Shown here one piece after another: positions 100 through 38,184 of a DNA stretch of 64,000 nucleotides (the first letter of the stretch is position 1; every line of letters starts with the position of its first letter). The notes beneath the pieces are model-generated. The model was not told where the DNA came from. It made no database searches and saw nothing but the letters and a program-made list of their open reading frames with translations. The translations under genes and the position numbers were made by a program. Source of the stretch: Prorocentrum cordatum (taxonomy: Eukaryota); NCBI GenBank assembly GCA_963575745.1, contig CAUYUJ010000002.1:620001-684000 (forward strand). The letters run 5' to 3'.

Positions 100-290
100 C
101 CAGCACAGCAGCCCTGGCTGCTGAGCAGAGCCATTCTTGGGCCACCCAGGGCAGGAGAAGTTGGGTTCGCCCAGCCTCTACGTCGTCAAAGGCCTTCGTG
201 AGGTCAACTCGGGGTCGTGTAAACAGGTGGGACCAGGCAAAGTTGACAAGGCTCGGCCCTCAGGCCACCCGTGACCCCAAGACCTCGTGG
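100..290 (-). pseudogene. Short degraded non-LTR reverse transcriptase fragment
   Basis: Minus strand 208-176 reads VDLTKAFDDVE, the DLxKAFD motif of LINE RTs; no other RT motif is seen nearby. Confidence 0.4.
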
Positions 291-562
291 GTTTGTTTGG
301 AGACACGCTGTTGCTAATTAGCGCCTGTGCCTGGTAAGGGTCGCACGAGCCTTTGGATTAAATGTGATATTTGCCTTGTTCGGGGGCCTCGCCGTGTTCG
401 GGCGCGTCAGTCAGTCCCTCATCAGTATTCTTCTTCGTCCTCCTCCTCCTTCTCCTCCCCCGCCACCTCCTCCTCCTCCTCCTCCTCCTCCTCCTCCTCC
501 TCCCTCCTGCTCCGTGAGAACCTCGCTCGAATTTCAAAGTTCCAGCTTTCTGGGCGCAGAGT

Positions 563-692
563 TCGGCATCGCTCGGACGTGTGCATGTTTTTTGATGGCG
601 AGGACCATCGAGGAGCATCTTGACTCATCTGGCGAACGACACTCGCATGACATCGAAGCATGCACGGGGAATGGACGTCCGAGCGATGGCGA
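563..692. mobile_element. MITE/introner family C copy
   Basis: 18-bp TIR tcggcatcgctcggacgt / acgtccgagcgatggcga (1 mismatch); internal sequence aligns with 50833-50961. Confidence 0.85.
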
Positions 693-693
693 G

Positions 694-1090
694 AGAGGCC
701 CATCAGTTGTTGTGGAAGAGGAAGAGGCCCAGGTATCCAGGGCAAGGCGGGAGCACGTGCTTTCTCTGAACCAGCCACCCGTGCTGCTATGGGGCGAGGC
801 GGCCCAGGCGGAGGAGCCCACGCATGTCTTGGAGGAGGTCCGTTCGGAAGTGCAGCTGCTGGCCGTGGCTGAGTCGCTCGGGGCTGATAGAGATGCGCAG
901 CCGTTGGTCAGGGCTGCCCGTGTACGCTTCGAGGAGTCAGACGGCTCCGATCAGTTCTTGTGCTCGTCTCCTGGTCCTTGGTCACTTTTTACGCGCGTGA
1001 GCCGCCGCAGGAGGCGCAGTCTACGAGAGCCGCTGCTACACTCAGCCTCAGGAGCAGCAGTCCACGAGAGCCGCTGCAACCCTCGCCCCT
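694..1090 (+). CDS. Possible exon of unknown protein
   Basis: Non-repetitive open frame (RGPSVVVEEEEAQ...EESDGSDQ) directly after the AG at the end of the family C element; no recognisable motif. Confidence 0.3.
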
Positions 1091-1419
1091 CTTTACGGGA
1101 TCCCGTTGAAAAGAGTCTCCTCATCCTTCTCCTCCTCCTCCTCCTCCTCAATGCTTGGCTGAAACGCCGACACCGTATTCGGTCCTCCCTCCTCCGCCTC
1201 CTTCTCCTCGCTTCTCCCCCCGCTATTCCTTGTTGTGTGGCTTGTCTTGTTCGCCGATTGGCAGGCATTTTTATAAGAAGTTCCCCGGTATCTCCTCTTC
1301 ACTTTGTGTTCTTCTCAGTTCGTTTTTACCGAACGTCATCCAATTGTTGCCATCACGATTCACGACAAAACATCAAAACTCGCCGGGTTCAAGGTTCGAG
1401 GTTGTTGGACGATAAGGAA

Positions 1420-1735
1420 TAGTAGTGTCTGAAGGGTTTGAGATTCTAGGGTTAGGGTCTGCAGGGTTAGAGTCCGTAGGGTTAGGGTGTGTAGTGTCGG
1501 GGTATGTAGGACCAGCAGGGTCTGTAGGGATACGGTCCGTAGGGTTAGGGCACGTCGGATTAGAGCCTGTAGAGTTAGAGTATGTAGGGCGCTAGGGTCT
1601 ATAGGGTTAGTAGGGTATGTAGTGTCAGGGCGTGTAGGGTTAGGGTCTGTAGGGTTAGGGTCTGTAGGGTTGGGGTCTGTAGCGTTAAAGTATGTAGTGT
1701 TAGGGTCTGTGGGGTTAGTAGGGTCTGTAGGCTTA
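1420..1735 (+). repeat. Degenerate TAGGGT/TTAGGG telomere-like minisatellite
   Basis: Repeated tctgtagggttaggg-type ~15-bp units. Confidence 0.85.
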
Positions 1736-1744
1736 GTGCACTGG

Positions 1745-1905
1745 CAACGCAGGAAGGAGGAAACTAGAGGTGCACAGAGAAGAGAGAGGATGCTCAGAAA
1801 CATACTTGTGAACGTTCGGGGAACCCATATGTATCCGTGGTGAACGTTGGGGGAGCTCGCGTACATTACATGTGATCGTGATGGTGTTGTACGTCCTTGC
1901 GAATA
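1745..1905 (+). repeat. Dispersed repeat adjoining the TAGGGT arrays (second copy 5940-6105)
   Basis: cgcaggaagg...agagagaggat.ctcagaaaca...gaacgttcgggg...agctcgcgtaca is shared with 5940-6105. Confidence 0.75.
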
Positions 1906-2279
1906 GCATCGCTTTTCCGCGAGGCCCGTTCATGACGGGAAAGGTTTGGGAAATGAGCGTTTCGCCTGAGACATGTTTTCCACATCGCGATCTTGGGGGT
2001 CGTATCTTAAAACGCCGTTTGCTAACCGTGAGCGTTTCGCCCGAGGCATCCTCGGAAAAAAAACGGTGATGTTGTAATCGTTGGCCGAATCTCTGGAACT
2101 TCAAAGTTACCCTTTCGCCAGAGGCATTCTCGAACGAATGCGATGCGCCAAGAGTTGGTTCGAAACATCTATTCGGAGCGCTCTTGGGTGACCTCCGTGG
2201 TGGCCCAAGGAGCGGAAGCATTGAAACACTCAGGGTTTAAATTCAGTAACACGCTCGTTCATGGTAACGTCCCAGGCTC

Positions 2280-2592
2280 TGTATGGTTAGTAGGGTCTGT
2301 GGAGTGAGGGCGTGTAGGGTTAGGGTCTGTAGGGTCAGGGTATGTAGGGTTTGGACTTGTAGAGTTAGAGTCTGTAGGTGAAGGGTGTGTAAGACTAGTA
2401 GGGTCTGTAGGGTTAGGATCTGTAGGGTTGGCGTCTGCAGGGTTAGAGTCTGTAGGGCGCTGGGGTCTATAGGGTTAGCAGGGTCTGTAGGGTTAGGGTT
2501 TGTAGGGTCAGGGTCTGTAGGGTTAGAGTCTGTAGTGTCAGGGTCTGTAGGGTTAGTAGGTGTTGTAGGATCAGGGTCTGTAGAGTTAGGGT
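2280..2592 (+). repeat. Degenerate TAGGGT telomere-like minisatellite
   Basis: Same units as 1420-1735. Confidence 0.85.
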
Positions 2593-4461
2593 CGTCCTTT
2601 GCTCCGTTCCCCTCCCCCCCCCTGGATGGTGCCGAAAGCGTCCGCGGCTCGCGCGGGGGAGCGCCCCTTTCCACCTCCCCCATTCTTCCTCGTTCCTCTT
2701 TGCCTCCCTGCTCCACCGTCCGTCGTCGTACCTCGTCTTCCCTCCTTGTTCGAAAAGTGAAGTCCCTGGTGCCGCCTGCCCGCATCAGCGGTATATCGCC
2801 TTTTCGATGTCCGACGACAGCGGCGCAACCAAACAGAAGGGATTGCCAATGCGAGCGTTCGGGGCGCATTCCAAACGCGGGTGGCACGGCCGCCGAGCAC
2901 AGTCGCATCGCTAACCTGTAAGACATCGGTGCCTGTGGAAAGGCACCCCCTAGCCAGAGCAGCGATCTGTATGGCGACGCGTGGGGCTCTGACCGTTAAG
3001 AGGTCCATGACATATGACACCTTTCGTGTTCTCGGATGGCTGTGCGTTTTTTGGGGCCCTTCGAAGCCTCCTGAGACTTCTTCGGGCCGCTGCGGGCCAG
3101 GGAAGCGCGCATTTGCAGCTCCCTCGGGGGCGCCCTGAGTAGGGGAAGTGTGTATTCGCATTCCCCCCCCAGCTGGGCATGTCGACCTCGATGCTGGGTT
3201 GTCAAAGCCGGGGCGCCCTCGAGGTGGCGAGCGTTTACCTTTTTTTTTTTCGAGATGCACAGATCAAGGTGTGATATGTGTACACCGCTTGCGCATTCAA
3301 CTGTATTGTCTTGTGTGGGTCCACTGCTTACACAGATCGTGGTGTGATCTGTGTACACAGATCTCGTTCCCATCCATGTATTTGGAGTGTGCCCCTCGCG
3401 GGTGGCGTTGACTGGGCGGGAACTCTCACGTTTCTCTCTCGGCTGGTCCAGGGGGGGCGTCGTGCGCGGTCGAAATGCACAGCTCGTGTCTCCAATTGCG
3501 CATACGTTGCGCTCCGTTCGCAGGAGTGGTCATTTAGCGGGAGTTTCCGCGGGTCTCCCGGTTGGTACGGGGCCATGGTTTAGGAGTGCGAAGGCGTGGG
3601 GGGGTGGGGATGGTGGGCTGTGGGAAGGAAGGGGTTTGATAGGAGGGGTGGCCAACGGGCCAGGGATGAACGGGACTGGACGAGAGGGGAGGAAATGGGC
3701 CCAGGAGGAGCTGCATCATCGGTGTCAGCATCACGAGGACGAGGGAGGCGGGGGGGGGGGCACAAGGAGGGGGCATGATCTGCACTAGGGCGTAGAGGAT
3801 GGGAGGAGGGCAGGCACGTGGACGATGGGGGAACCAATCTGGCGGAGGAGGGCGAAGAAGAACGACATGCATTGGCACACTGACGGGTGACAGTGCGGAT
3901 GGGGGGCATGGTGAGGACTGGGGGTAGTCGGAGGGGCATGAGGAGGGCGGTGCCGAAGCGAAGGGAAATTGGGAGGAGGCGGGGGATGGGGCATGAGTTC
4001 GAGGCGGGCGCCAGCTAACGATCAGCTGAACAGCGTCTTGCGTGTCCGTGCACCTCCCAGAACACAGTGACCAGTTGCAGAACTTCATAATATGGGAAAT
4101 CGTGCGCTTCGTGCTCCCAGGCCAAAGGCTCGAGTCCACGACGCCCCTTGGTGTTGCATTGATGCCGCCCCGATTTGCCAGACCGCATATGCACATATAG
4201 GCATAAAGTACGTTTCAGCGTTATTTTTTTGATACCAGCTCTATAATAACAAGCACACGTTGGAATGCAATTCGGGACATATGTTCGGAACGCCCTTGGA
4301 TGACCTCCAAAATGGCCCAAGGGGCGAAATGAGTGAAACCACGCTTGGTTGTTCAACACATTTGTTGTAACGTATGCGTCCCCATCGGAACATCACATTC
4401 AAAATGCCTTCGATCGGGTCCTTGAACTGATCACATCATGATGGACATGCCGATGTAAATC

Positions 4462-4712
4462 AGTTAGGGTATGTAAGGTTAGGGCTTGTAGGTTTAAGGC
4501 ACGTAGGGCCAGTCAGGTCAATTGGTTATGTAGGATTAGTAGGGTCTGTACGGTCAATGTTTATATGGTAAGAGTATGTAGGACATGTCAGGTTTGCAGG
4601 GCTCTATTATTTTAGGATGAGGGTTTGTAGGGTTGGTAGGGTATGTAGGGTTAGGGCGTGTAGGGTTATTGTATGTAGGGTTATGGTATCCACGGTTAGG
4701 GTACATGAGGTT
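4462..4712 (+). repeat. Degenerate TAGGGT array, resuming at ~5872-5925 after the foldback insertion
   Basis: tagggtatgtagggttagggcgtgtaggg units. Confidence 0.75.
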
Positions 4713-4716
4713 AAAA

Positions 4717-5865
4717 CAGCGTGTTCTACCGCTGCTGGCGGAAAACCCGGGGGGGTCACTACCGGTTCGAACCCCTTCCCCCCCCCTTCCGGAAAACCGG
4801 GGGGGGGGTTCATTACGGTTTCGAACCCCTCCCCCCCCTCCCTTTCATCATTAAAAGGGGGGGGGTCACTACCGGTTCGAACCGCCCCCCCCCCCTCGAA
4901 AACCGGGGGGGGGCCACTGCCGGTTCGACCCCGCCCCCCCTGCCCCTCCTCGAAAACCGAGGGGGGGGTGCGGACAGTGGTGGGGACAGTGGTGAGGGGA
5001 CAGCAGTGAGGGGACAGCGGGACAGTGGTGGGGACAGTGGGACAGTGGTGGGGACTGTAGTGGTGGGGACAGTGGTTAGGAGAATGGCGGGAACAGTGGG
5101 GACAGTGGACATTGGTGGGGACGGCGGTGGTGGGGACAGTGGTGTGGGGACAGGGGGAGGTGGAAACAGTGGGACAGTGGAGGGTACAGTGGTGGTGGGG
5201 ACAGTGGTGAAGGCGGTGGCGAGGACGGCGGTGGGACAATGGGACAGAGGTAAAATGGGGACAGTGGTGGGGACAGTGGGGACAGTGGTGGGAACAGTGG
5301 GACAGTTCAGTGGGACAGCGGAGGAGTCAGTGGGACAGTGGGGACAGTGGGGATAGTCGGGCAGTGGTTGGGGCCGTGGAGAAAGTGGGGAGAGTGGAAC
5401 CGTGGTGGGAACAGTGGCGGGGACAGTGGGGACAGTGCGACAGTGGTGGGAGCACTGGTGGGGACAGTAGGGACGGTGGTGGAACCAGTGGGGACAGTGG
5501 TGGTGAGGACAGTGGTGCTGGGAACAACAGTGGGGGATGTGGCGCGGACGGTGGTAGGGACCAGGAGTCGTTTGCAGGCGGTGAGTGGGGGTGGTGGGGA
5601 GGGGTTCGAACGGTAGTGACCCCCCCTCCGGTTTTCGAGGGGGGGGTGGAGGGGGGGGGGTTCGAACCGGTTGTGACCCCCCCCGGCTTTCGAGGCGGAG
5701 GGGGGGGGGGGGAGGGGTTAGGGGAGGGGGGGGGCGCGGGGGAGGGGAAGGGGGGGGGGGGTCCAGCAGGGGGGGGGGGGGATTTTCGGAGGAGAGGGGG
5801 GACCCCCGGGTTCCGGAGGAAAAGGAGGGAAATGTTTCACGGTAAAGCGGCGGTGGATCACGCTC
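4717..5865. mobile_element. Foldback-type non-autonomous DNA transposon
   Basis: Terminal IR agcgtgttctaccgctgct / agcggcggtggatcacgct (16/19); subterminal arrays ggggtcactaccggttcgaacc (4750-4930) are inverted at 5600-5680; central gggacagtggtg minisatellite (4970-5560). Confidence 0.75.
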
Positions 5866-19330: not shown

Positions 19331-21309
19331 TGGGCGACCCAGAAGACGGGACGAGGCGGTGAGCTGCCACGTTTGTAAATCAGCGGCCGGAGGTTTGAAC
19401 CATGAGCCGCCTCACTATACCTCCCCCTCCCTCCCGGCCGCTCTCGCCCCACTAACCCCCTCCGTCTTTTCGCATACTTTCCTCGGTCTCTCTCTCCCCC
19501 GGGGACCCGCCGTCTCCGCGGCCGCCCCCCGGGGGCCCCTCTCCCCCTCCTCGCCCGCCCGCGCACTTGCCTGACGGGGGCGGGGCCCAGACCGCACTGC
19601 CCGCTTGAAGGCTTTCATTGTACCCTTCGCCACCAGAGGGTTGGCGCTAAACCCAGATAGTGGGACAACAAAAAAAACAGTGGACCCACAGCAGCGTTCT
19701 CTCGGACGCGCTTGCACTTGTTTGGGGCTGGGAGGAGGTTTTCGGGGCGAACTGCCAAACCCCAGGGCTCGGCGAGTGTATAGCCGCCACCAGGCCCGAC
19801 CGAGCACGGGCCGCTCGGACCCTCTGTACTCGGCGCGCGGCGGACAGACCGTCGGCCAGCCACCGCTTCACCGACGCCAGCGCCGGCGACCTGACTATGG
19901 TCGCCACGGGCTGTGCACTGCGACAGCTCCCTAGGCACGTCCTCTTACGCCCCCCCCATCCGCCACATGGATGCTTTCATCCCTGTGTTGCACACACCGC
20001 AGCGCGGCAGTTGAGAAAGGCACTGCCCTACCAGCCTGCCTGGGCGGCGTGGGAGGCGGAGTGCAAGGGCGTCGAACCCGAATTTTCACAGCGCACCTCA
20101 CTGAGGACCACGACGGCGCCACACCCAGCCAACGGGGGGGAGCTAGGGGAGCTATATCGAGAGAGGAGGGGGAGGAGGAGGAGGAGGAGGAGGAGGAGGA
20201 GGAGGAGGAGGAGGAGGACCGGGAATCCGTGTCCATAGTCTTCTTTGTTGCTTTCAACTCCCCCACTGTCGGCCGACCAGCCCCCATGGGGGAAACGGCA
20301 GCGTGCGGAGCGGAGGAGGGGGGGAGGCAGAGATCCGGGAGGAAGCGGTGGCCATGGGTCGTCGGCCGCTCCGGACCATGCCTTGGCGGGGCCAGGCGCC
20401 TCCCGGAGCGGTGGTACCGGCCCTCTGCGACGTCAGCTCTGATGTCGGTCGTCCTCCCTCCTCCCCACCGTTTCCCTCCTCCCACCCATCTCCCTCCTCG
20501 CCCCTCCCCATGCCCCGCCCTCCCTCGCCCTCCTCCCCCTCGCCTCTTCCCTCCCTTGCACGTTCCCGTCCCCTCCTTGGCCCCCTCCCTCCCTCACCCG
20601 GATCCCCTCCTCCGCCCCCCCCATCCCTTTGACCTACCTCCTTGCCCTCCCCATCACCCTCGGCCTGGGGGCAGCCGAGTGGGCCCCCACCCCCATCACA
20701 CAGGGGGACCCTCAGGCATTGGAATTCATGTCCACGCCTCCACATCAGCGACTGCCCAGGCCGGGGCCCTTCTGTTCAGGCCTCCCTCCCTCCGTCCCCT
20801 CCCTGGTTCTCCTCCCATCCCCGTGCCCCCCGTCCCTCCCGTCTCCCTCCCTCCCGCCCTCCCTCTCTCCCCTCCCCCCCTCCCCCGCCCTGCCCTCCCC
20901 CTCTCCCTCCCCTCCCCCTCCCTCCCCCTCCCCTCCTCTGCCCCCCTCCCTCCCCTCCCCCCCCTCCTCACGGCCCCCTAGGCTCCCTCGGGGAGGGACC
21001 GACACCCCCGTAGGGGACCTAGGGGGCAGGCCGGAAGGAAGCGGTCCGCCTGCTAGGCCACGGTGGGCCTGCAGGCCGCTTTAATTCCGGCCAGGCAGAG
21101 GCAAGGGGGGGAGAGGATGAGGAGGAGGAGAGGAGGAGGAGGAGGAGGAGGAGGAGGAGGAGGAGGAGGAGGAGGAGGAGGAGGAGGAGGAGGAGGAGGA
21201 GGAGGAGGAGGAGGAGGAGAGGACGGACGCACAGAAGGCGTCCCGGCAAGGGCGGCCCGGCAGGGGAAGGGGAGGGCGGGGGAAGGCAGAGGGGGACGGG
21301 GGGCGGCGG

Positions 21310-24300
21310 CGGGCGTCGTCGTGGTGGTGGTGGTCATGCTGGTGGTGGTCGTGGTGGTCGAGGTGGTCGTCCTGGTGGCGGTCGTCGCGGTGGTCGTGAT
21401 GGAGGTGGTCGTGGTGGCTGGTAGGCGTGGTCGGTCTGCTAGTAGTGGCTGGTATGTGTGGTCGGTCTGTTGGTGGTGGTCGTAGTGGCTGGTAGGAGTG
21501 ACCCCCGCACGGCGGCGGTGGTGGTGGCCGCAGTGGTTGGCTGTAGCCGCCGCGTTCTGGTCGTTGTCCTGGTCGTAGTGATTGTGTCTGCCGCAGCGGC
21601 TGTCGTGCTGGCGCTGGTCGTTGTCGCGGGGGCCATGGGGCTTAGCGCCCGAGCGCGCTCAGCAGCATCTCAGCATTTCCCCTTTGGAGGGTCCTGCTGA
21701 TCTGCCGCCAGAGACCGCCCAGCAGCTCGGAGCGGTCGGCGTCGTCTAAACCGGCTCCGTAACTGCGGACAAAGTTGGCTGCTTCGTCGCTGGGCCGGCC
21801 CCCCGTCTCGAAGACAAGAGGACCAGTTTTCCTCCGTGCGGAGGGTAGCGCTCGCGCTTCTGTTCCACCGCCTGCGCGGCCGCCAGTCCGTCTCTCTCGG
21901 CCCGGGCCCCCCTGCGTGGAGCGTAGGTTGAGTGTACGCAGGTGATGCTCGCGTCGATGAAGATCTGGCGGCCGCTGGCCGGGTCGCTAGTGGAGAGGTC
22001 GAGCACTGCCTGTTGGAGCTCGCCCGTGCGGGTGTGGCGGCGGTCCCAGGCTGGGGCGGCCTGCTCCGTGGGCGCCGCGAAGCCAGTGAGTTCCTTGTGC
22101 TTCGCGGAGTGCCAGTCGCGGCAACTGTTGTGGCGGTTGTTGCGCGACGCGCCCACCCCGCACTTGACTGCGTGCCAGCCATGCGGGTCGAGGGGCTCGT
22201 TGCAGAGGCTTCCGTCCTGGCGGTGGTGCTGGCATGGAGAGCCAGGCGGCCAGACGGGGATGCCGAGCCGACGCTTGAGATTGCAGCAGAAGTGCGGATC
22301 TGGCTGGCGGGGTTCGTCTGGCTGGCGCGGGAGGAGCCAACTGCCGGCGCCAGTGCCTCCGTTTTCCCGCAGGCGCAGGCGGTGGTTTTCGTCGTGCGCC
22401 CGCAGCAGATTCCCCCTGTTGGCCGCGGAGGCCGCTCTGCCCCAGTGCCCCTGAAGCTTCGGCTGCGGTTCGGCGGCGCAGCCAATCCAGTCAAAGGGCG
22501 CCTGGAGGACGTCGGCCGCCCGGAGCGCCGCTTCTGCCTGGTCGAGCGTCTGTTTCGTCCTCGGGCAGCGGGTCCGGAATTCCTGCAGCGAGTTCGCCCC
22601 CAGGCAAGCCATGACGTCGTGAAGCAGGAGGGCCCAGCTGGCGGCGTAGGCGGCGGGCGCCGCCTGGGTGGCTGAGGGGAAAGCACATCCGCCGTCGGAG
22701 AGTCGCAGGGTGGCTTGGAGGCGTAGCGGCGCGTCCAGGGGCCCGCCAGCGAGCTGCTCGAGGCAGCCGAAGAGGACAATGTCGAGCTGCTCTGTCCAAT
22801 CCCCCTGCAGGTTGGCGCGGAGGTGGTGCGCGAAGCACCCCCGAGCGAAAGTCAGGAGGAGAGCGAAGGCGCTCTCAGCCCGCAGGCCCGCCTGTCGCAA
22901 CTCTTGCAAGCGGGCAGCAAACGCCGCGGCCTTGGCCACGGCCGTAGCTCCGTCTAGCCCAGCGTGGACGGCCACTCGTTCTTCCCCCCCTCCCTCCCCT
23001 CTCCGCTCCTGCTCGAGCCAAGGGGCGGTGTTCCCCAGGCAGGTGAGGTTGTCCACCCAGCGCCCCTGTGCGGCGGCAGGCAAGTGGCCGCGCCCTCCGG
23101 CAGACCACGCCTGAGTCTTCGTCTGGTTGACTGCAAGTCCGTGCCGCGTTAGGGAGTCGGTGACCACCTGCATGGCTGCGTCCGCGTGTTCTGGCGGGGC
23201 GAAGACCATGATGTCGTCGAGGTAGCTGAACACCCTGCAGGAGGTCGAGAGGGCCTGGAGGCGCGTGTAAACATCGTCCAAAGCGTCCGCAATGCCGATG
23301 GCAAAGAGCGCTGGCGAGAGCGGGCACCCCTGGTCCACGCCGCTGGTAGCCCGAATGCGGTGGGCGTCTTCGGCGGGGTCGCCCCACCAGTAATGCCGCG
23401 TGGTTCCCGTGAGCCAGTGGTGGGTGCACTGGAACAGCCGCGGGGCCCGACGACGCCAGCTGTCCAGGACCCTGTCGCGGGGGACACTGCTAAAAGCGTT
23501 AAAGCAGTCGAACGCCAGAGCAACCCCGAGCGGGCAAGCCTCCGACAGGGCTGTGAGGCACTTGTGCACGAGCTCGCACCCCGCCGCGCGCCCGACGGCA
23601 TATTGTTGGGGGCCGACTGCGCCCTGAACGTCGTCTTTGTAGACATCGCAGGCGGCTCTCGCAGCGAGCCGGCGGAGGACAGAACCGCACGCAATCGGCC
23701 GGAGTGTTCCGTTCCGCTTGCGCTGGGCCAGCAACCGGGCGCCAAAGTTGGCTCGCGTCGCCTCGGGGCTGAGCTTGCCGAGCAGGAAGGCGACCGCGAC
23801 CCTGGCCACCACTTCCAGAGCGTGGGTGTCGGCAAGCAAACGTGCGCCAGTGTTCAAAGCGGCTGCCGTTTGGGCCAGGTCCAGAGCGGCGCGGGCTCTT
23901 TGCGAGGCCCTTGACCACGGCCGCGGCCAGGGCAGCGCGAGTGTCGTCGTCTCTCGCTGATGGCACTTCCAGGAGGCGTTGTTCTGGCTGCTCTGGGAAT
24001 AGGCCTTGGAGGCCAGCCTGGACGCCAGCCCCCGAGGCCAGCGCGCTGGGGCGGAGGGCTCGCTGCATTGCCTTGCTGACAAGGTGTTCGTCCAGCAGCG
24101 TCTCTACCGCCCGCGCGTCCTGCTTCGCCGTCGGGGCACCATCTCCTCTTCTCGGCCCGCGGCTCGCAGTCGTAGTGGATTCGCGCCAGAGACCTCCCCA
24201 GTCCCCTTGCTCCGCCATCCGCACGCGCCTCGTGAGGATGCGTGCCAGGCCACCCGTTTTGCGCGCCTTCTGGCCACCGCGGGTCTTCCCAGGTTTGAAG

Positions 24301-25540
24301 AGCAACACTCTGTCGAAAAACGTGAACGCCTTCTCCGCCCGGGCCTGCGCGGCGGCGTCGCCAGCAGTCTTCGCGGCAAGGAACTGTTCGGCCACGCGTC
24401 CGCGGAGCTGGGCCAAAGCTGCGTTCACGTTCGTCGGCACCTGGAGAATCGTGTGGACGTCTTGCTCGAGGGCGGCGTAATCAATTGAATCCCACCACTC
24501 CAAATTCGCAGGCTGGGGCGGCATACTGCTGGAAGGGTCCTCGGGCTCGGGGCCCAGCGCCCCGTCGTCTTTCTCCAGAAGGGGCACGCCCAGCAAAGCG
24601 GCCTGGCGGGCAGTGTCGGGATCGGTCCTCGCGCGCTTGGCTCTGCCGAGGTCTGCGACGTTCTCTGCCCGCGTGGGCTGGCCAGGGCGGTCACACAGGC
24701 CTCGGACGGCGTTTTGTTGCTCCGGCGAGAACGCGCCTGTGCCCTGCACCTGATCGTAGGGCCCCAAACCGCCCTCCACGCAGCCCGGGTGGTAGTAGAG
24801 CGGGTTGGCCAAGCCACGATTGCATATTCGCAGGTCCCCTTTGGCGAGGGGTTCCCGGCATGTTGGCGCGCGGCAGAGAGCGCCGCGCCTACTCGGCATC
24901 ACACTGACGGCCCAGGAGGTGGCCCGCAGGTGTCGCCCTCTTGGTGGCGCGGGCTCGGGGTGCGGCTCTGGCGGGGGCGGGGCCGACGCTGCCGCCTCCT
25001 CTAGAGGGAAGGCTGGCCAGCAAGCCGCGGCGAGGACGGGCACGCTGGCCTGAAGCCCCAGCGTGGGGCAGCCTGCCAGGGCGACAGTGGCGCTAAGGAC
25101 GCGGCAAAGCCATGGCGTAGTGTGCGCGCCCCTCCAAATAGCCACGAGGCTTCCAGCCCCATAGGCCGCGCGGAGACCTCCCATTCGCACGGCGCTGACG
25201 GCCATGACTGGCACTGGGGATCCCGAAGCGACGGCGAGCAAGGACATCACGGGCATGCTCCCGCCTGCGATGGCGCGCCCGGTTGCGGTCAACATCACTG
25301 TGGCGATCGCCTCCGGGCGCAGCGCTTGGAAGAGGCCCCACAGCATGACCCCGGACGTGAACCGCGTAGCCACGAAGGCTCCGAAGAAGAACTTGTCGGT
25401 CCCCGAAGATTCAGGTTCACGGCGCGAGGGCCCGGCGATACTCCACCAGCAGCGCTGGTCGTGCTGGCCGCGCCACTGGCGGACGCAGCGCAAGAGCGGA
25501 GATGGTGTAGGTAGTAGAGCTCCGCGCTGGAAGTCGCCCG
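21310..25540 (-). mobile_element. RLE-type (CRE/R2-like) non-LTR retrotransposon
   Basis: Single long ORF with RT and restriction-like endonuclease domains; 3' flank is a degenerate (ACC/ACG)n tract; both boundaries are approximate. Confidence 0.85.
21642..25346 (-). pseudogene. zf-PARP + reverse transcriptase + CCHC knuckle + restriction-like endonuclease ORF with two 1-bp frameshifts
   Basis: Motifs SGPGPNG, RPIACGSVLRRL, QYAVG, FDCFNAF, GVDQGCPLSP, YLDD (23213-23224), C..C..HAVKC, RNNRHN, DL..IDAS, KRERY, then shifted PLVFETGG...GNAEMLLSALGR* (TAA 21642-21644); frameshifts at ~23839 and ~21821. Confidence 0.9.
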
Positions 25541-26919
25541 GCCGGCTGGGCTCCTCCCTCTCCCTCCCCCCCCTCCCCTCCCCCCCTCCCCCCCTCCCTC
25601 CCTCCCCCTCTCCCTCCCCCTCTCCCCCTCCCCCTCCCTCCCCCCCTCCTCCCCCCTCCCTCTCCTCCCTCCTCCCTCCCCCTCCCTCCCTCCCCTCCCT
25701 CTCCCTCCCTCCTCCCTCTCCCTCCCCCTCCCCTCCCCTCCCCCAGGCCGCACCGGCCAGGCCCTGGTGGTCACGCGCGAGGCGCCGGCTCCCCCCGCGC
25801 GGAGGGGCCCGGGGCCACGAGTGCCTCTGCCCGGCTCCAGCGCCTCGCCTCCCTGGCTGCCCCCCCCTCCATCCTCTCCCCTCTCCCTCGCCCTGCCTCT
25901 CCCTCCTCTCCCTTTCCCTCCCTCTCTCCCTCCCTCCCTCTCTCCCTCCTCTCGGTCTCCCTCCCTCTCCCCTCCCTCCAGCGCCGCCCTCGGCGCGCTC
26001 CGCGCGCCAGAGGGGGGGTCCAGGGTTCCGGCGCCGATCCAAGAAATCCGCGCGAAGCCCCGAAAAGGTTATGTTTATGCAGCTTTTTGTTCTTCTCATT
26101 CTGACTCCCTTCCTCCCCCCTCTCGTCCTCTGGTTCCACCCCCCCTGGACGGAGGGATGAGGGAGCGAACGGACGAAGAGGACTCAGGGCTCGGAGATGA
26201 GTTAGGCCATCACCAGGCCCCAGGATCGTAACAAGAGCAATTCGGGATGAGAATCGTGGTGAGGGATACTTAGGATTATGATGTTCCAGCCTACGTTAGC
26301 ATTGATCACCACAAAGAACTTCGAGCACCAAGAGAGTACCCACACGGGATGGTCTTCACGCGTCGGGCCCTGGGTGGCGATACTCGTTACTGTTTCGATA
26401 CTGTTCTGGGATGTGGTCCTTAACTGAAGTACGATGGGAGCAACATCAAATTAGGAGAACGACGAGGAGAAGGAGGATGACGAAGAACGAGGGACGGCGA
26501 CGATGGAGTCGCAGCGGCGACCACGACGACGACGACGGGGGACGAGGACGAGGACGAGGAGGTTGGGGACGACGAGGATACAGTGGTGGCGGAGGAGGAC
26601 GACGACGACGAGGTGGACGACGAAGAGGAGGACGGGACGAGGCAGAGGAGATGGAGGAGGAAGAGGAGGAGGAGGAGGAGGCGGAGGAGGAGAGTGAAGG
26701 GGGATGACGAGGACGAGGATGCGGGTAAGGAGGAGAAGAGGGAGGACGATGGCGATGACGAGTGAAACACTGACGCGTACTTGCGCCACAGGTGCAGCAT
26801 CATGGCGCTCTGCCCGCCGCTGAGAGGAAGAGAAAACGAGGCGGAGGGAGGCGCCAAGCGCCAGTAGGCATGCGCAGCCTTCTCCTCCTCCTGCTCCTCC
26901 TCTTTCCCCTTCTCCATTA

Positions 26920-27760
26920 TTTTCCGTGTAACTCCCCCCTGTCGTACCCCGAGGCCGGTCGAAGGGCGGGCTGGGCGTTTCGCCTGAGATTTGTGCACCA
27001 GTCATGGCCTTGATGCTGACACATTGTCAACAGCTTCACAAATTGAGAGCCGGTCGCTTTCAAAATGTGGCTCTCGCCTCAGCGCCGCGCACACTCGTTC
27101 TAACCATTTGCGAGACTCTCACGATTTGAAAGTGTGTGGTTTTCAAAATGTGACTCTCGCCTTAGCGCCGCGCACATTCGTTTCAAACAAATGCAAAAGT
27201 TTCACGGGTTGAGGGCGAGTCGTTCTCCAAACGTGGATCTCGTTTTAGCGCCGCGCAGATTTGTTTTAAACGTGTGCAATGTGTGTCACGGATTGCGGGC
27301 GGTTCGTTTTTAAATGTGGTTCTCGCTTTAGCGCCGCGCACAATCGTTCTATACATTTGCGAGGGTTTCGCGGATTGAGGGCAGTTTGTTTTCAGCATGT
27401 AGTGTTCGCCTTAGCGCCGCGCACGTTCTTCGCAAATGTTTGCAAGAGTTCCATTGGCTCTTCTGGTTTACGTACCAGAGATGGCGTCTTGAAACGATTA
27501 AGGATTGTCAGGGCACAACAGTTACGTTGATTCGCGTTGCTCGAGTCTCAGGAAAGGTGTCCTGGCACGGTTCAGGATCGCCAAGGCGTATCAGTCTGGT
27601 TAATTCGTGGCGTCGAAGTTCTGAGGATGTTGACACATTTACCCTCCAACGTGGCAATCCCCTCAGTGGAAATAACCCCTTGCAAGGAGCCTGTGAAGAG
27701 GGATCTTGGAGAGAGGGTCTGTTTCAACATCGTTCTTGAGTCTTGGGTTTGCACTGGTCC
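26920..27760 (+). mobile_element. Composite SINE-like repeat, copy 3, ending ggtttgcactggtcc(tcc)n
   Basis: Reverse complement of copies 1 and 2, including the internal ctcgccttagcgccgcgcac array. Confidence 0.75.
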
Positions 27761-35923: not shown

Positions 35924-36399
35924 GCCACTACTGCCACTACTACTACTACTCACTACTACTAACTACTACCACTAACTAACTACGACTACTACTACATCTA
36001 CTACTAACTACTACAACTACTACTACTTAAACGACTACGACTACTACTACTACTCGACCAACTACTACGACTAATGCGCTACTTTTACTACTACTACTAA
36101 CCTACTACCTACACTACTACCTACTACATAAACTACACTTACTACTAACTACAACACTACTAATACAATACTACTACTACTAACTACTACTACTACTACT
36201 GTTACTGTTACTACCTGTACTAACTGTTACTAACTTGTTTACTACTACTACTACTACCAACTACTACTACTTACTACTACTACTACTACGACGACTACTA
36301 CTACTACTACTACGCACTAAAACTACTACTACGAACTGCTGCAACTACTACTACTACTACTACTACGAACAAGTACTACTACTACTACATTAAACGACG

Positions 36400-36430
<31 letters not shown>

Positions 36431-36616
36431 ATAACACACCTACTACTACTACTACTACGAACTACTACTACCACTGAATTACTACTACTACTACACTACT
36501 ACTACTACTACCTACAATTTCTAATTTCCTACGAAACTACTTACTAACCACTACAACTACTACTACTACTACTACCACGATTTCTATCTAACACCACCAC
36601 TATTACTACACTACTA

Positions 36617-36662
<46 letters not shown>

Positions 36663-36689
36663 AACTACTACTACTACTACTACAACTAC

Positions 36690-36757
<68 letters not shown>

Positions 36758-36823
36758 GTACTACTACTACTACTACGACTACTACTACTACTGCTGTTAC
36801 TACTACTACTACTACTACCACTG

Positions 36824-36869
<46 letters not shown>

Positions 36870-37085
36870 GACTGTTACTACTACTATTAATAGTACATGG
36901 TAGGTGTGCCTGGTAGCAGTGCTTGATAGTAGTAATGGCAGTACTACCTGGTAGTAATAATTACTTGTCCCACCTGGTAGTAGTACTTGGTAGTAGTCGT
37001 ACCCGGTAGTAGTAGCAGTAGTAGTAGTAGTAGTAGTAGTAGAATCTGGTAGTGGTAGTGGTAGTAGTAGTAGTAGTAGTAGGTC

Positions 37086-37122
<37 letters not shown>

Positions 37123-37323
37123 TAGTAGTAGTAGTAGTAATAGTAGTATTACCTGGTTGTACTAGTAGTACCTGGTAGTAGTGGTAGTAGTAGTCCTAGT
37201 AGTAGTAGTAGTATCACTTGGTAGTAGTAGTAGTAGTAGTAGTAGTACTTGGTAGTAGTAGTAGTACTAGTACCTGGGAGTAGTAGTAGTAGTAGTCGTC
37301 GTCGTAGTAGTAGTAGTAGTAGT

Positions 37324-37383
<60 letters not shown>

Positions 37384-38184
37384 CAGTAGCAGTAGCAGTA
37401 GCAGTAGCAGTAGCATAGCAGTAGTAAGTAATAGTAGTAGCTAGTAGTAGTGGTAGTGGTAGAGTAGTAGTAGTAGTAGTAATAATAAATAATACTAAAT
37501 AATATAAAATGTTATGAATAAAAATTAGTAGCAGTAATATATTTATATTATGTATGGTGAGTTTTAAATTAAAATAATTATTTTATCATTTAATATTTAA
37601 ATTAATATTTTAGTTTAAGTTTTATATTAATATCGTTTTTTTTTAATTGATATTGATTTCTTATAGATTAATTTAAATTAAGTCATTAAGTCTTGAACTT
37701 ATGATTTCTTTATTTTACATTATATATGATAAATTTTTATTTTTTGCTTTTATTTTTAAATTTAATATTTATTATCATAATTGATTGGATATATGTTATT
37801 AAAGTTTTCCTTGTTCTCCAAAGCCGCCTTTCAGCATAACTAGTGGTTTCTGCGGTTGTAAAATTATCTAATATGTACAAGACTGTCTCAAACCTCGTAT
37901 TAGTAACAGTACTAAGAATAACCAGTAGTGGCCAAGTCGTTGTCGCTGGCCCCCTTTCGCCGCCGCGGGCGCGCGTCGCGCGCTCGGCGGCCCTCGCCTC
38001 GGATCTCGCGCAGGGCGCGCTCGATCCAGAGACTCGTCCACTTACTCGCAGCAGTAGTTGCAGTGTCGAGCAGTACTCGTACTGATCACTACGAGTCACT
38101 ATTTTCCGACAACCACTACTACTAGTAGTATTACTGATTACGACCGCTACTACGACGAACTACTGCTACTACGATTCGTACTGC
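35791..38184 (-). other. 2.4-kb GC-AG intron made mostly of (CTA)n then (TAG)n microsatellite plus an AT-rich block
   Basis: gac ag|gcagta...gggcgag|g ttc gtg cac joins TWATADR to FVHLVAKGG in frame. Confidence 0.65.

What the first reader, a model, noticed from the sequence alone, without database searches (positions are those of the whole stretch)
24690..24915. PARP-type zinc finger at the N-terminus of an RLE retrotransposon protein
Seen: WAVSVMPSRRGALCRAPTCREPLAKGDLRI...YYHPGCV...VQGTGAFSPEQQNAV, in the same frame that runs into the first RT motifs. Known: this matches the zf-PARP pattern (S.R..C..C...I.KG.LR...H..C...G...L...Q), a DNA-break sensor in PARP1 and ligase III, whereas R2/CRE elements typically use C2H2 fingers and Myb domains. 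Inference: the element may recognise nicks or breaks rather than a fixed target sequence.
Basis: partly seen in the sequence, partly recalled or inferred. Interest (0 to 1): 0.78.

Follow-up and report, generated by a model that had tools for sequence, protein, structure and literature searches.

The report
PARP-type zinc finger in a retrotransposon
A dead copy of a jumping gene of the R2-like kind carries, ahead of its reverse transcriptase, a diverged but genuine copy of the zinc finger that PARP1 and DNA ligase III use to grip broken DNA, a combination I found in no paper.

Summary
The quoted residues are on the minus strand at 24690-24915. They form a CCHC finger (C-x4-C-x22-H-x2-C).

**Is it zf-PARP?** Alone it matches Pfam zf-PARP only weakly (E 0.014, 16.5 bits, cut-off 39.3). 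The family evidence is decisive:
- 28 related fingers keep all four zinc ligands.
- Their profile hits PARP1 Zn1-Zn2 at 3e-10; 15 of 16 PDB hits are PARP or ligase III fingers.
- A 4-sequence profile reaches true multi-zf-PARP proteins in 1.8 billion sequences.
- The AlphaFold model matches only PARP1 and ligase III fingers.

**The host element.** It is a single-ORF non-LTR retrotransposon. Its RT is nearest R2 among solved structures, and a CCHC motif plus an R2-like restriction-like endonuclease follow. At least four intact relatives carry finger, RT and endonuclease in one frame. The window copy has three frame breaks; at two of them, related contigs from other runs differ by one base.

- The finger is not at the N-terminus. 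A conserved hydrophobic region of about 250 aa precedes it.
- An RT tree suggests one origin of the finger and its replacement by another module in one subclade.

**Open.** Nick or break sensing is plausible but untested. The backbone-grip arginine is kept; the base-stacking loop is shortened. Target specificity is unresolved.

The parts
21320..25560 (-). Approximate extent of the retrotransposon copy. The 5' end is placed where similarity to relatives begins. The 3' end lies inside an imperfect (ACC/ACG)n-type tail. Both ends are uncertain by tens of bases.
   Evidence: Related contigs from other runs cover bins 21252-25667 only. Protein similarity to P0008, P0001 and P0003 starts about 10 codons before SSAELYY. 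Repeats flank the copy.
24933..25531 (-). Conserved N-terminal region (SSAELYYLHHLRSC motif at 25490-25531; hydrophobic stretch; WPAFP at 25005-25019). In this copy it is broken by a frame shift near 25400.
24617..24932 (-). zf-PARP-type CCHC zinc finger domain (105 aa) ending in a basic AKRAR motif. Ligand codons: 24873-24875, 24858-24860, 24789-24791, 24780-24782.
23839..24616 (-). Acidic linker and conserved pre-RT region (NLEWWDSIDY block at 24477-24506; ...SGPGPNGSRFEHWRT at its end).
23830..23838 (-). Frame break between the finger-bearing frame and the RT frame. Relatives have one base fewer here.
   Evidence: (left out 1 at 23838/23839: X1 5.36 of 5.36; X2 3 + 2.8 of 5.8)
23045..23722 (-). 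Reverse transcriptase domain (Pfam RVT_1; FSYLDDIMV at 23204-23230).
22160..22234 (-). C-terminal CCHC motif (C-x9-C-x9-H-x3-C) ahead of the endonuclease.
21839..22135 (-). Restriction-like (PD-(D/E)xK-type) endonuclease core, from RHNSCRDWH to KRERYPP. It holds the residues that are invariant in 6 relatives (E-Q, W-D-R, L-D, D, K-R-x-R-Y-P).
21815..21825 (-). Third frame break, near the C-terminus. Most related contigs have one extra G here.
   Evidence: (put in G at 21817/21819: X1 30.5 of 37; X2 13 of 16)
21642..21644 (-). Stop codon of the family's reading frame (...GNAEMLLSALGR*).

Best explanation
Window 21.3-25.6 kb (minus strand) is a dead copy, with three frame breaks, of a multi-copy single-ORF non-LTR retrotransposon. 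In intact relatives (1250-1580 aa) the protein reads: a conserved hydrophobic N-terminal region; one zf-PARP-type CCHC finger ending in a basic KRxR motif; an acidic linker; a conserved pre-RT region; the RT; a CCHC motif; and an R2-like restriction-like endonuclease (RLE).

Shown: the finger is a real, diverged homologue of the PARP1 and DNA ligase III fingers. It sits in the slot where R2 carries its C2H2 and Myb target-binding domains.

Inferred: it is the element's DNA-binding module for target-primed reverse transcription, and it recognises DNA backbone or structure (a nick, gap, end or junction) rather than a base sequence. Because the RLE residues are conserved, the element most likely still cuts its own target. 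The finger would then hold the nicked intermediate, or bias insertion toward DNA discontinuities that already exist.

My odds: true zf-PARP homologue 0.95; DNA-binding role in integration about 0.6; nick or break recognition specifically about 0.3-0.35.
For: **Homology**
- The 4-sequence family profile finds 55 proteins at E<=1e-3 in 1.84e9 representatives.
- 5 of those 55 are bona fide zf-PARP proteins above Pfam's cut-off: P0016 (289.5 bits, five fingers; 1.3e-21), P0044, P0048, P0049 and P0058.
- 22 further hits score zf-PARP below the cut-off (E 2.3e-6 to 0.082).
- 28 aligned fingers keep C20, C25, H48, C51 and L56 invariant.
- Their profile against PDB gives PARP1 Zn1-Zn2 at 3.1e-10 and ligase III at 3.6e-4; 15 of 16 hits at E<=1 are zf-PARP chains.
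- The AlphaFold model has pLDDT 77.1 and pTM 0.65.
- In Foldseek all 21 rows listed at E<=0.018 are PARP1 or ligase III fingers, TM by target up to 0.63. The next hit has E 0.24.

**Element type**
- RVT_1 scores 5.3e-21.
- The family RT profile hits R2 proteins at 4e-12 to 3e-6, ahead of L1 ORF2p at 8e-5 to 3e-4.
- The C-terminal CCHC and acidic/Lys residues are invariant in 6 sequences.
- The C-terminal model's top 5 Foldseek hits are R2 proteins (3e-5 to 4e-3), followed by other PD-(D/E)xK nucleases.

**One ORF.** P0003, P0060, P0061 and the L004 DNA (285..4880, 1531 aa) carry finger, RT and RLE in one frame.

**Multi-copy, LINE-like.** 459 and 176 related contigs were laid from two runs, and depth is biased toward the 3' end.

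**The slot is swappable.** In an RT tree of 60 rows, all 17 finger-bearing proteins lie in one 43-row clade (SH-aLRT 97). A nested 16-row subclade (SH-aLRT 96) has 8 of 8 scorable members with a different, unrecognised N-terminal module instead of the finger. The fewest state changes needed is 2.

**DNA-contact residue.** The Arg aligned with PARP1 R34 is kept in at least 90% of the 28 fingers. That R34 is the 'backbone grip' is recalled, not from a call.

**Precedent for the idea.** R2 workers have already asked whether an R2 finger might sense the first-strand nick, citing the PARP1 and ligase III fingers (PMC11204384, passages read).
Against: - No binding data exist for this finger.
- None of the retrotransposon fingers scanned against Pfam reaches the zf-PARP gathering score. 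The best is 28.7 bits against 39.3.
- The knuckle is C-x4-C in this subfamily. More distant members have the canonical C-x2-C.
- The loop that aligns with PARP1's base-stacking loop (around F44; recalled) is 5-6 residues shorter and mostly small residues in the family consensus. Recognition of exposed bases at a break may therefore be lost.
- The conserved RLE argues that the element does not depend on breaks that are already there.
- Most RLE clades are sequence-specific (PMC4640811, passages read).
- This copy lies among low-complexity repeats, which leaves room for repeat targeting.
- The RLE model has low confidence (pLDDT 56.1).
Confidence: 0.55

Rival explanations
1. The finger is the element's sequence- or repeat-specific target reader, functionally like the ZF and Myb domains of R2. 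It would direct insertion into a particular repeat such as a purine-rich microsatellite.
For: Four of the five RLE clades are mostly target-specific, and some HERO families target microsatellites (PMC4640811, passages). The copy is bordered by (GGGA/GGAG)n-like arrays at 25553-25744 and again at 20781-20979, and by (CCT)n at 21113-21223. The finger occupies the slot of R2's target-binding domains.
Against: Known zf-PARP fingers read DNA structure, not sequence (recalled). Sequences upstream of the conserved 5' start differ in the window, L002, L004, P0001, P0003, P0006, P0010 and P0020, though these are different subfamilies. Low-complexity DNA is abundant all over this window, so repeat flanks are expected by chance. 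The two flanks do not have the same strand polarity.
Confidence: 0.2
2. The finger does not bind target DNA. It binds the element's RNA or a host factor, or it competes with host PARP or ligase III at the integration nick.
For: The family has a strongly conserved signature right after the H-x2-C (CVEGGLGP) that PARP1 lacks, and a shortened loop. Both hint at an altered ligand.
Against: The Arg aligned with PARP1's DNA-contact R34 is nearly invariant. The position ahead of the RT parallels DNA-binding modules of other RLE elements. I made no test.
Confidence: 0.15
3. The match is a chance CCHC pattern, or a host exon joined to the element by assembly or insertion, and not a zf-PARP domain of the retrotransposon.
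For: The window sequence alone gives only E 0.014 against Pfam. The whole 866-aa frame gives no hit. The 4-sequence profile against PDB was not significant (E 1.5).
Against: The profile and fold evidence is significant and specific. The finger is in frame with RT and RLE in four intact ORFs from different sources, and is present in 17 of the 71 proteins found by RT alone. In the core clade 12 of 12 scorable rows have it.
Confidence: 0.03

Closest known systems
zf-PARP fingers of PARP1 (Zn1, Zn2) and DNA ligase III (Pfam PF00645; PDB 2n8a, 4av1, 3od8, 3odc, 1uw0)
   Same: CCHC zinc ligands in the same order. The motif after the second Cys (x3-[IL]-x-[KR]-G-x-L-R) and the [WY]-[YF]-H-x2-C motif match. 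The Arg aligned with PARP1 R34 is kept. Same fold by Foldseek.
   Different: One finger only, with no PARP or ligase catalytic domain. The knuckle is C-x4-C in this subfamily. There are 22 rather than 28 residues between the second Cys and the His, so the base-stacking loop is shorter. A family-specific CVEGGLGP motif follows the last Cys. Scores stay below Pfam's gathering cut-off.
R2 non-LTR retrotransposons (PDB 8gh6, 9dou, 9nl2, 9nl3)
   Same: Single ORF. The RT is the closest among solved structures. C-terminal CCHC plus restriction-like endonuclease. A DNA-binding module lies ahead of the RT.
   Different: No C2H2 finger or Myb domain was detected. The finger profile does not hit R2 chains in PDB. 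No rRNA was found around the copy. An extra hydrophobic N-terminal region is present.
Other RLE clades (CRE, R4, NeSL/Utopia, HERO) as summarised in PMC4640811
   Same: The general plan: N-terminal accessory domains, then RT, then a zinc finger plus RLE. Accessory domains vary, for example Ulp1 protease or RNase H in NeSL/Utopia.
   Different: The passages read list zinc-finger motifs, protease and RNase H as accessory domains, but no PARP-type finger. Clade membership of this family was not tested, because no reference sequences were at hand.

Membership tests
zf-PARP (PF00645) | Four zinc ligands in the order C, C, H, C | tested here: met
   C20, C25, H48 and C51 are invariant in 28 of 28 aligned fingers.
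zf-PARP (PF00645) | Canonical spacing C-x2-C-x28-30-H-x2-C (recalled from PARP1; PARP1 numbering read off the alignment) | tested here: not met
   The window has C-x4-C-x22-H-x2-C. Distant family members have C-x2-C. Bona fide zf-PARP proteins found here also vary: C-x4-C in P0049, C-x3-C in P0058.
zf-PARP (PF00645) | Score above Pfam's gathering cut-off (39.3 bits) | tested here: not met
   The window scores 16.5 bits. The best retrotransposon finger scores 28.7 bits (P0025).
zf-PARP (PF00645) | Significant profile-level homology to solved zf-PARP domains | tested here: met
   The A3 profile against PDB gives 3.1e-10 for PARP1 F1F2, and 15 of 16 hits are zf-PARP. The A2 profile reaches 5 bona fide zf-PARP proteins in 1.84e9 sequences.
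zf-PARP (PF00645) | zf-PARP fold | tested here: met
   Model pLDDT 77.1. All 21 rows listed at E<=0.018 are PARP1 or ligase III fingers.
zf-PARP (PF00645) | Binding to DNA nicks, gaps or ends | not testable with these tools
   Needs a binding assay. Only the conserved Arg and the shortened loop can be read from the sequence.
RLE-bearing non-LTR retrotransposons | LINE-type reverse transcriptase | tested here: met
   RVT_1 5.3e-21. R2 and L1 ORF2p are the best PDB matches.
RLE-bearing non-LTR retrotransposons | C-terminal CCHC motif followed by a PD-(D/E)xK-type endonuclease | tested here: met
   Invariant C, C, H, C and E, D, D, K columns. The top 5 fold matches are R2 proteins, but the model is of low confidence, pLDDT 56.1.
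RLE-bearing non-LTR retrotransposons | Single ORF and no LTRs | tested here: met
   One ORF in P0003, P0060, P0061 and L004. tblastn found no second copy of either ORF in the window. The window copy itself is broken in three places.
RLE-bearing non-LTR retrotransposons | Assignment to a named clade (CRE, R2, R4, NeSL, HERO) by RT phylogeny | not tested
   No reference sequences were available. The tree holds only unnamed database relatives.
R2 clade | N-terminal C2H2 finger(s) and Myb domain | tested here: not met
   Pfam reports only RVT_1, plus weak zf-PARP, in the window ORFs and in 4 full-length finger-bearing relatives.
R2 clade | Insertion in 28S rDNA | tested here: not met
   No rRNA match in 20000-27500 at E<=1. 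The flanks are simple repeats.

The most novel reading that the evidence does not exclude
A lineage of restriction-like-endonuclease retrotransposons captured the cell's own DNA-break sensor, a zf-PARP finger, and uses it in place of sequence-reading fingers. Integration would then be guided by DNA structure: the finger clamps the element's own nick for priming, or steers reverse transcription to nicks and gaps that already exist. The slot is modular, because a nested subclade has swapped the finger for a different, still unrecognised domain.
Probability: 0.3. Interest if true: 0.8.

Novelty: new variant of a known kind. Interest (0 to 1): 0.6.

Why it matters
How non-LTR retrotransposons choose and hold their target is an open question, and R2-type elements are being developed as gene-insertion tools. 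R2 workers have already wondered whether one of R2's own fingers senses the first-strand nick (PMC11204384). This family offers a natural case in which a recognisable nick-sensor fold is built into the enzyme, so that idea becomes directly testable.

The family also shows that the pre-RT slot is exchangeable within one clade. Because every scanned member scores below Pfam's cut-off, routine annotation would probably not label the domain.

If the finger proves to be an ordinary non-specific DNA clamp, the finding shrinks to a new domain architecture in a little-studied protist LINE family.

Tried and rejected
**Searches and scans that gave nothing**
- No whole genome is held for this window, so insertion sites could not be compared within the host.
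- The window holds only this one copy.
- The 4-sequence profile against PDB was not significant (E 1.3-1.6). Only the 28-sequence profile was.
- Rfam over 20000-27500 gave two sub-threshold miRNA matches and no ribozyme or rRNA.
- The ESM Atlas gave nothing for the N-terminal region of P0003 or for the replacement module of P0077.
- A PDB profile search of the fingerless sister clade hit only RTs.
- Earlier-findings look-ups found nothing on this element.

**Sequencing runs**
- No RNA holder was listed.
- The two holders carry small shares of the words (0.19 and 0.05).
- Their contigs are short and were cut at the flanking repeats. Element ends, target-site duplications and target preference therefore could not be read.

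**Metagenome scan**
- A scan with A3 failed for lack of a conserved stretch. It was repeated with A2.
- That gave six loci. Their flanks share no sequence with the window's flanks, apart from one 24-base simple-repeat match.

**Step not done**
- A profile-profile comparison of the family with an alignment of bona fide zf-PARP repeats was not made.

**Literature**
- No paper held 'zf-PARP' with 'retrotransposon'.
- None held 'PARP-type zinc finger' with 'reverse transcriptase'.
- None held 'PF00645' with 'reverse transcriptase'.
- None held 'nick sensor' with 'non-LTR retrotransposon' and 'zinc finger'.
- 'PARP-like zinc finger' with 'transposable' gave one unrelated plant BER review.
- Of 72 papers, the one holding all four terms, by its title, deals with human L1 ORF2p (listing only).
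- Repbase reports and subscription journals are not in the library.
- (PARP2 and LINE-1) was seen as a listing only and is not used as evidence.

Full report
**1. The observation**

The quoted peptide is real. The minus-strand frame 23499..26099 (866 aa) reads ...WAVSVMPSRRGALCRAPTCREPLAKGDLRICNRGLANPLYYHPGCVEGGLGPYDQVQGTGAFSPEQQNAV.... The finger domain as later defined spans 24617-24932. Its four zinc ligands are encoded at 24873-24875 (C), 24858-24860 (C), 24789-24791 (H) and 24780-24782 (C). The spacing is C-x4-C-x22-H-x2-C.

On its own the sequence is only a borderline match. A 120-aa piece gives Pfam zf-PARP at E 0.014 and 16.5 bits, against a curated cut-off of 39.3. The whole 866-aa frame gives no hit.

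**2. Is it really a zf-PARP finger?**

A search with the 350 aa downstream of the Met at 24899 found four relatives. Three of them are 47-51% identical over 91-100% of the query, and they carry the same motif.

A profile of four fingers (A2) was not significant against PDB (E 1.3-1.6). Run against 1.84 billion representative proteins, it found 55 hits at E<=1e-3. Pfam on all 55 sorted them as follows:
- Five are bona fide zf-PARP proteins well above the cut-off: P0016 (289.5 bits, five fingers; E 1.3e-21), P0044 (177 bits, three fingers), P0048, P0049 and P0058.
- 22 others score zf-PARP below the cut-off (E 2.3e-6 to 0.082; best 28.7 bits).
- P0053 is an unrelated repeat protein, a false positive.

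An alignment of 28 fingers (A3) keeps C20, C25, H48, C51 and L56 invariant, and R35, G55, G57, G64 and L68 in at least 90%. Its profile against PDB gives 16 hits at E<=1. Fifteen are zf-PARP chains: PARP1 Zn1-Zn2 at 3.1e-10, a PARP finger (1v9x) at 5.3e-7, and DNA ligase III at 3.6e-4. The sixteenth is a PHD protein at E 0.36.

AlphaFold2 on A3 gave pLDDT 77.1 and pTM 0.65. In Foldseek against PDB, all 21 rows listed at E<=0.018 were PARP1 Zn1 or Zn2 and the ligase III finger, with TM by target up to 0.63. The next hit, a RING domain, had E 0.24.

I conclude that the domain is a diverged but genuine zf-PARP homologue. The knuckle spacing does not argue against this. More distant family members have the canonical C-x2-C, and bona fide zf-PARP proteins found here also show C-x4-C (P0049) and C-x3-C (P0058).

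**3. What carries it**

The neighbouring minus-strand frame 21746..24082 holds RVT_1 (E 5.3e-21) at 23045-23722. Behind it lie a CCHC motif (22160-22234) and a region from RHNSCRDWH to KRERYPP (21839-22135).

*RT.* A profile of seven full-length relatives hits R2 proteins best (4e-12 to 3e-6), then L1 ORF2p (8e-5 to 3e-4), then a group II intron maturase.

*Endonuclease.* In six C-terminal sequences the CCHC residues are invariant, as are an E-Q, W-D-R, L-D-V, a second D and K-R-x-R-Y-P. The C-terminal AlphaFold model is poor (pLDDT 56.1). Even so, its top five Foldseek hits are R2 proteins (3.1e-5 to 4.2e-3), followed by other PD-(D/E)xK nucleases such as Cas4, RecE, cap-snatching endonucleases and restriction enzymes.

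The element is therefore an RLE-type non-LTR retrotransposon. I could not assign it to CRE, R2, R4, NeSL or HERO (clades as listed in PMC4640811, passages read), because no reference sequences were available. It lacks R2's defining N-terminal C2H2 and Myb domains, and it is not in rDNA.

**4. Finger and RT in one protein**

Four intact ORFs read finger, RT, CCHC and RLE in a single frame:
- P0003 (1330 aa)
- P0060 (1252 aa)
- P0061 (1581 aa)
- the DNA locus L004, ORF 285..4880, 1531 aa

P0001 and P0029 are cut by contig ends but hold both finger and RT.

The window copy is broken in three places:
- near 25400, in the N-terminal region;
- at 23830-23838, between the finger frame and the RT frame;
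- near 21815-21825, close to the C-terminus.

At two of these breaks, related contigs from two other public runs differ from the window by one base. One base is absent at 23838/23839 (X1 5.36 of 5.36 depth; X2 3 + 2.8 of 5.8). One G is added at 21817/21819 (X1 30.5 of 37; X2 13 of 16). So the two breaks are private to this copy, or are assembly errors.

The same call laid 459 contigs (X1) and 176 contigs (X2) at 85-99% identity. Depth was biased toward the 3' end: 40-64 at 21620-22171 against 0.7-3 at 24932-25667 in X1. That is the pattern of a multi-copy, often 5'-truncated LINE family. These are contig depths, so they are only a rough guide.

**5. The finger is not at the N-terminus**

Relatives read through the window's Met 24899 from about 250 aa further upstream. 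An A-E-L-[FY]-[FY]-L motif lies 245-278 aa before the finger His, in the same frame, in seven sequences, and nearer in P0008, which has an internal deletion. A P-A-F-P motif lies 67-95 aa before the His in 15 sequences.

Because the frame is kept across indels in so many diverged copies, I take this region to be coding. It contains stretches with Kyte-Doolittle means of at least 1.6 over 19 residues in 12 of the 14 finger-bearing proteins examined. The G+C-rich composition may inflate this. I cannot explain the region. The Atlas gave nothing.

**6. History of the finger**

A search with the RT region alone found 71 relatives, and 17 of them contain the finger by the A3 profile.

I built a quick IQ-TREE tree of 60 rows. 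Eleven of the 71 were dropped because they covered fewer than 300 of the 501 query residues. The tree shows:
- All 17 finger-bearing proteins lie in one 43-row clade (SH-aLRT 97).
- The core 20-row clade (SH-aLRT 100) has the finger in 12 of 12 rows long enough to judge.
- A nested 16-row subclade (SH-aLRT 96) lacks it in 8 of 8 such rows.
- The fewest changes of state is 2.
- 32 rows are too short at the N-terminus to score.
- Support values are SH-aLRT only, and the root rests on distant, long-branched relatives.

The fingerless subclade has, in the same slot ahead of the WWD block, a different conserved module (G-S-T-D...G-R-N-x-K-G-D-G-P...Y-Y-G...Y-R-T-W-A-P...S-P-x-W-L-P). Some members also carry Cys-rich motifs further upstream. 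This module matches nothing in Pfam, PDB or the Atlas. The pre-RT slot therefore looks like an exchangeable module, which is what one expects of a target-binding domain.

**7. How it most likely works**

Shown:
- a zf-PARP fold sits in the position where R2 carries its target-binding ZF and Myb domains (PMC11204384, passages);
- an RLE with conserved catalytic-type residues follows the RT.

Inferred: the finger is the DNA-binding module for target-primed reverse transcription, and, like its relatives, it reads DNA structure rather than sequence.

In favour of a DNA-contact role, the Arg that aligns with PARP1 R34 is nearly invariant, and basic residues precede the first Cys as R18 does in PARP1. 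The roles of R18, R34 and F44 in PARP1 are recalled, not from a call.

Against a full PARP1-like end or nick recognition, the loop aligned with PARP1's base-stacking loop is 5-6 residues shorter and mostly small residues in the family consensus.

Because the RLE is conserved, I favour a model in which the element makes its own nick and the finger grips the nicked or branched intermediate. An alternative is that it biases insertion toward existing discontinuities. Pure dependence on pre-existing breaks seems less likely.

Rivals are listed separately: a repeat- or sequence-specific reader (0.2), RNA or host-factor binding or competition with host PARP or ligase III (0.15), and chance or chimera (0.03).

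**8. Target site**

This is unresolved.
- The copy is bordered on its sense strand by (GGGAGG)n-like DNA at 25553-25744 upstream.
- Downstream it is bordered by an (ACC/ACG)n-like tail, C/T-rich DNA, (CCT)n, and then (GGGAGG)n-like DNA again at 20781-20979.
- Such low-complexity DNA is common throughout the region.
- Upstream flanks of other copies differ. They often contain tandem repeats that could be 5' UTR rather than flank.
- The run contigs were cut at the repeats.

**9. Novelty**

Six literature searches found no report of a PARP-type finger in a retrotransposon. The earlier notes of this scan hold none either.

The library lacks Repbase reports and most subscription journals, so 'not in print' holds only for those searches. 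Because every retrotransposon finger scanned scores below Pfam's cut-off, routine annotation would probably not label it.

I class it as a new variant of a known kind: an RLE LINE with a previously unreported type of pre-RT domain.

**Verdict**
- The zf-PARP and RLE-retrotransposon readings are supported.
- 'N-terminus' is corrected.
- The nick-sensing inference is plausible but untested.

Noticed in passing
window 24933-25531 (-); P0003 residues 1-245; L004 285-1580: A conserved, in-frame region of about 220-330 aa precedes the finger. It has an AELFYLHHxRSCAA-like motif and hydrophobic stretches that look like membrane segments. This is odd for a retrotransposon protein. It has no match in Pfam or the Atlas.
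   Followed up: partly
P0076-P0092 (for example P0077 residues 115-240, P0081 residues 1-100): The sister subclade of the same retrotransposon family lacks the zf-PARP finger. In the same slot it carries another conserved module (GSTD..GRNxKGDGP..YYG..YRTWAP..SPxWLP), sometimes with Cys-rich motifs upstream. It matches nothing in Pfam, PDB or the Atlas.
   Followed up: partly
window 25852-26200: A short segment just upstream of the element is extremely abundant in other runs. Summed contig depth is about 936-1294 in X1 and 110-305 in X2, with many loose ends at 26018-26065. It is a separate high-copy repeat.
   Followed up: no
window 27021-27450: Tandem repeat with an 83-base unit and 5.2 copies.
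   Followed up: no
window 36001-38000: An A+T-rich island (GC 0.345) in a window that otherwise has GC 0.53-0.71.
   Followed up: no
window 20964-21036 (-): A hairpin-like stretch between the (CCT)n and (GGGAGG)n arrays gives a sub-threshold Rfam lin-4 match (31.9 bits against 40). It is most likely chance.
   Followed up: no
P0114 (1344 aa): A distant RT relative carries a C-terminal ubiquitin hydrolase domain (UCH, E 2.5e-39) behind the RT. This is another unusual accessory domain in this wider group.
   Followed up: no
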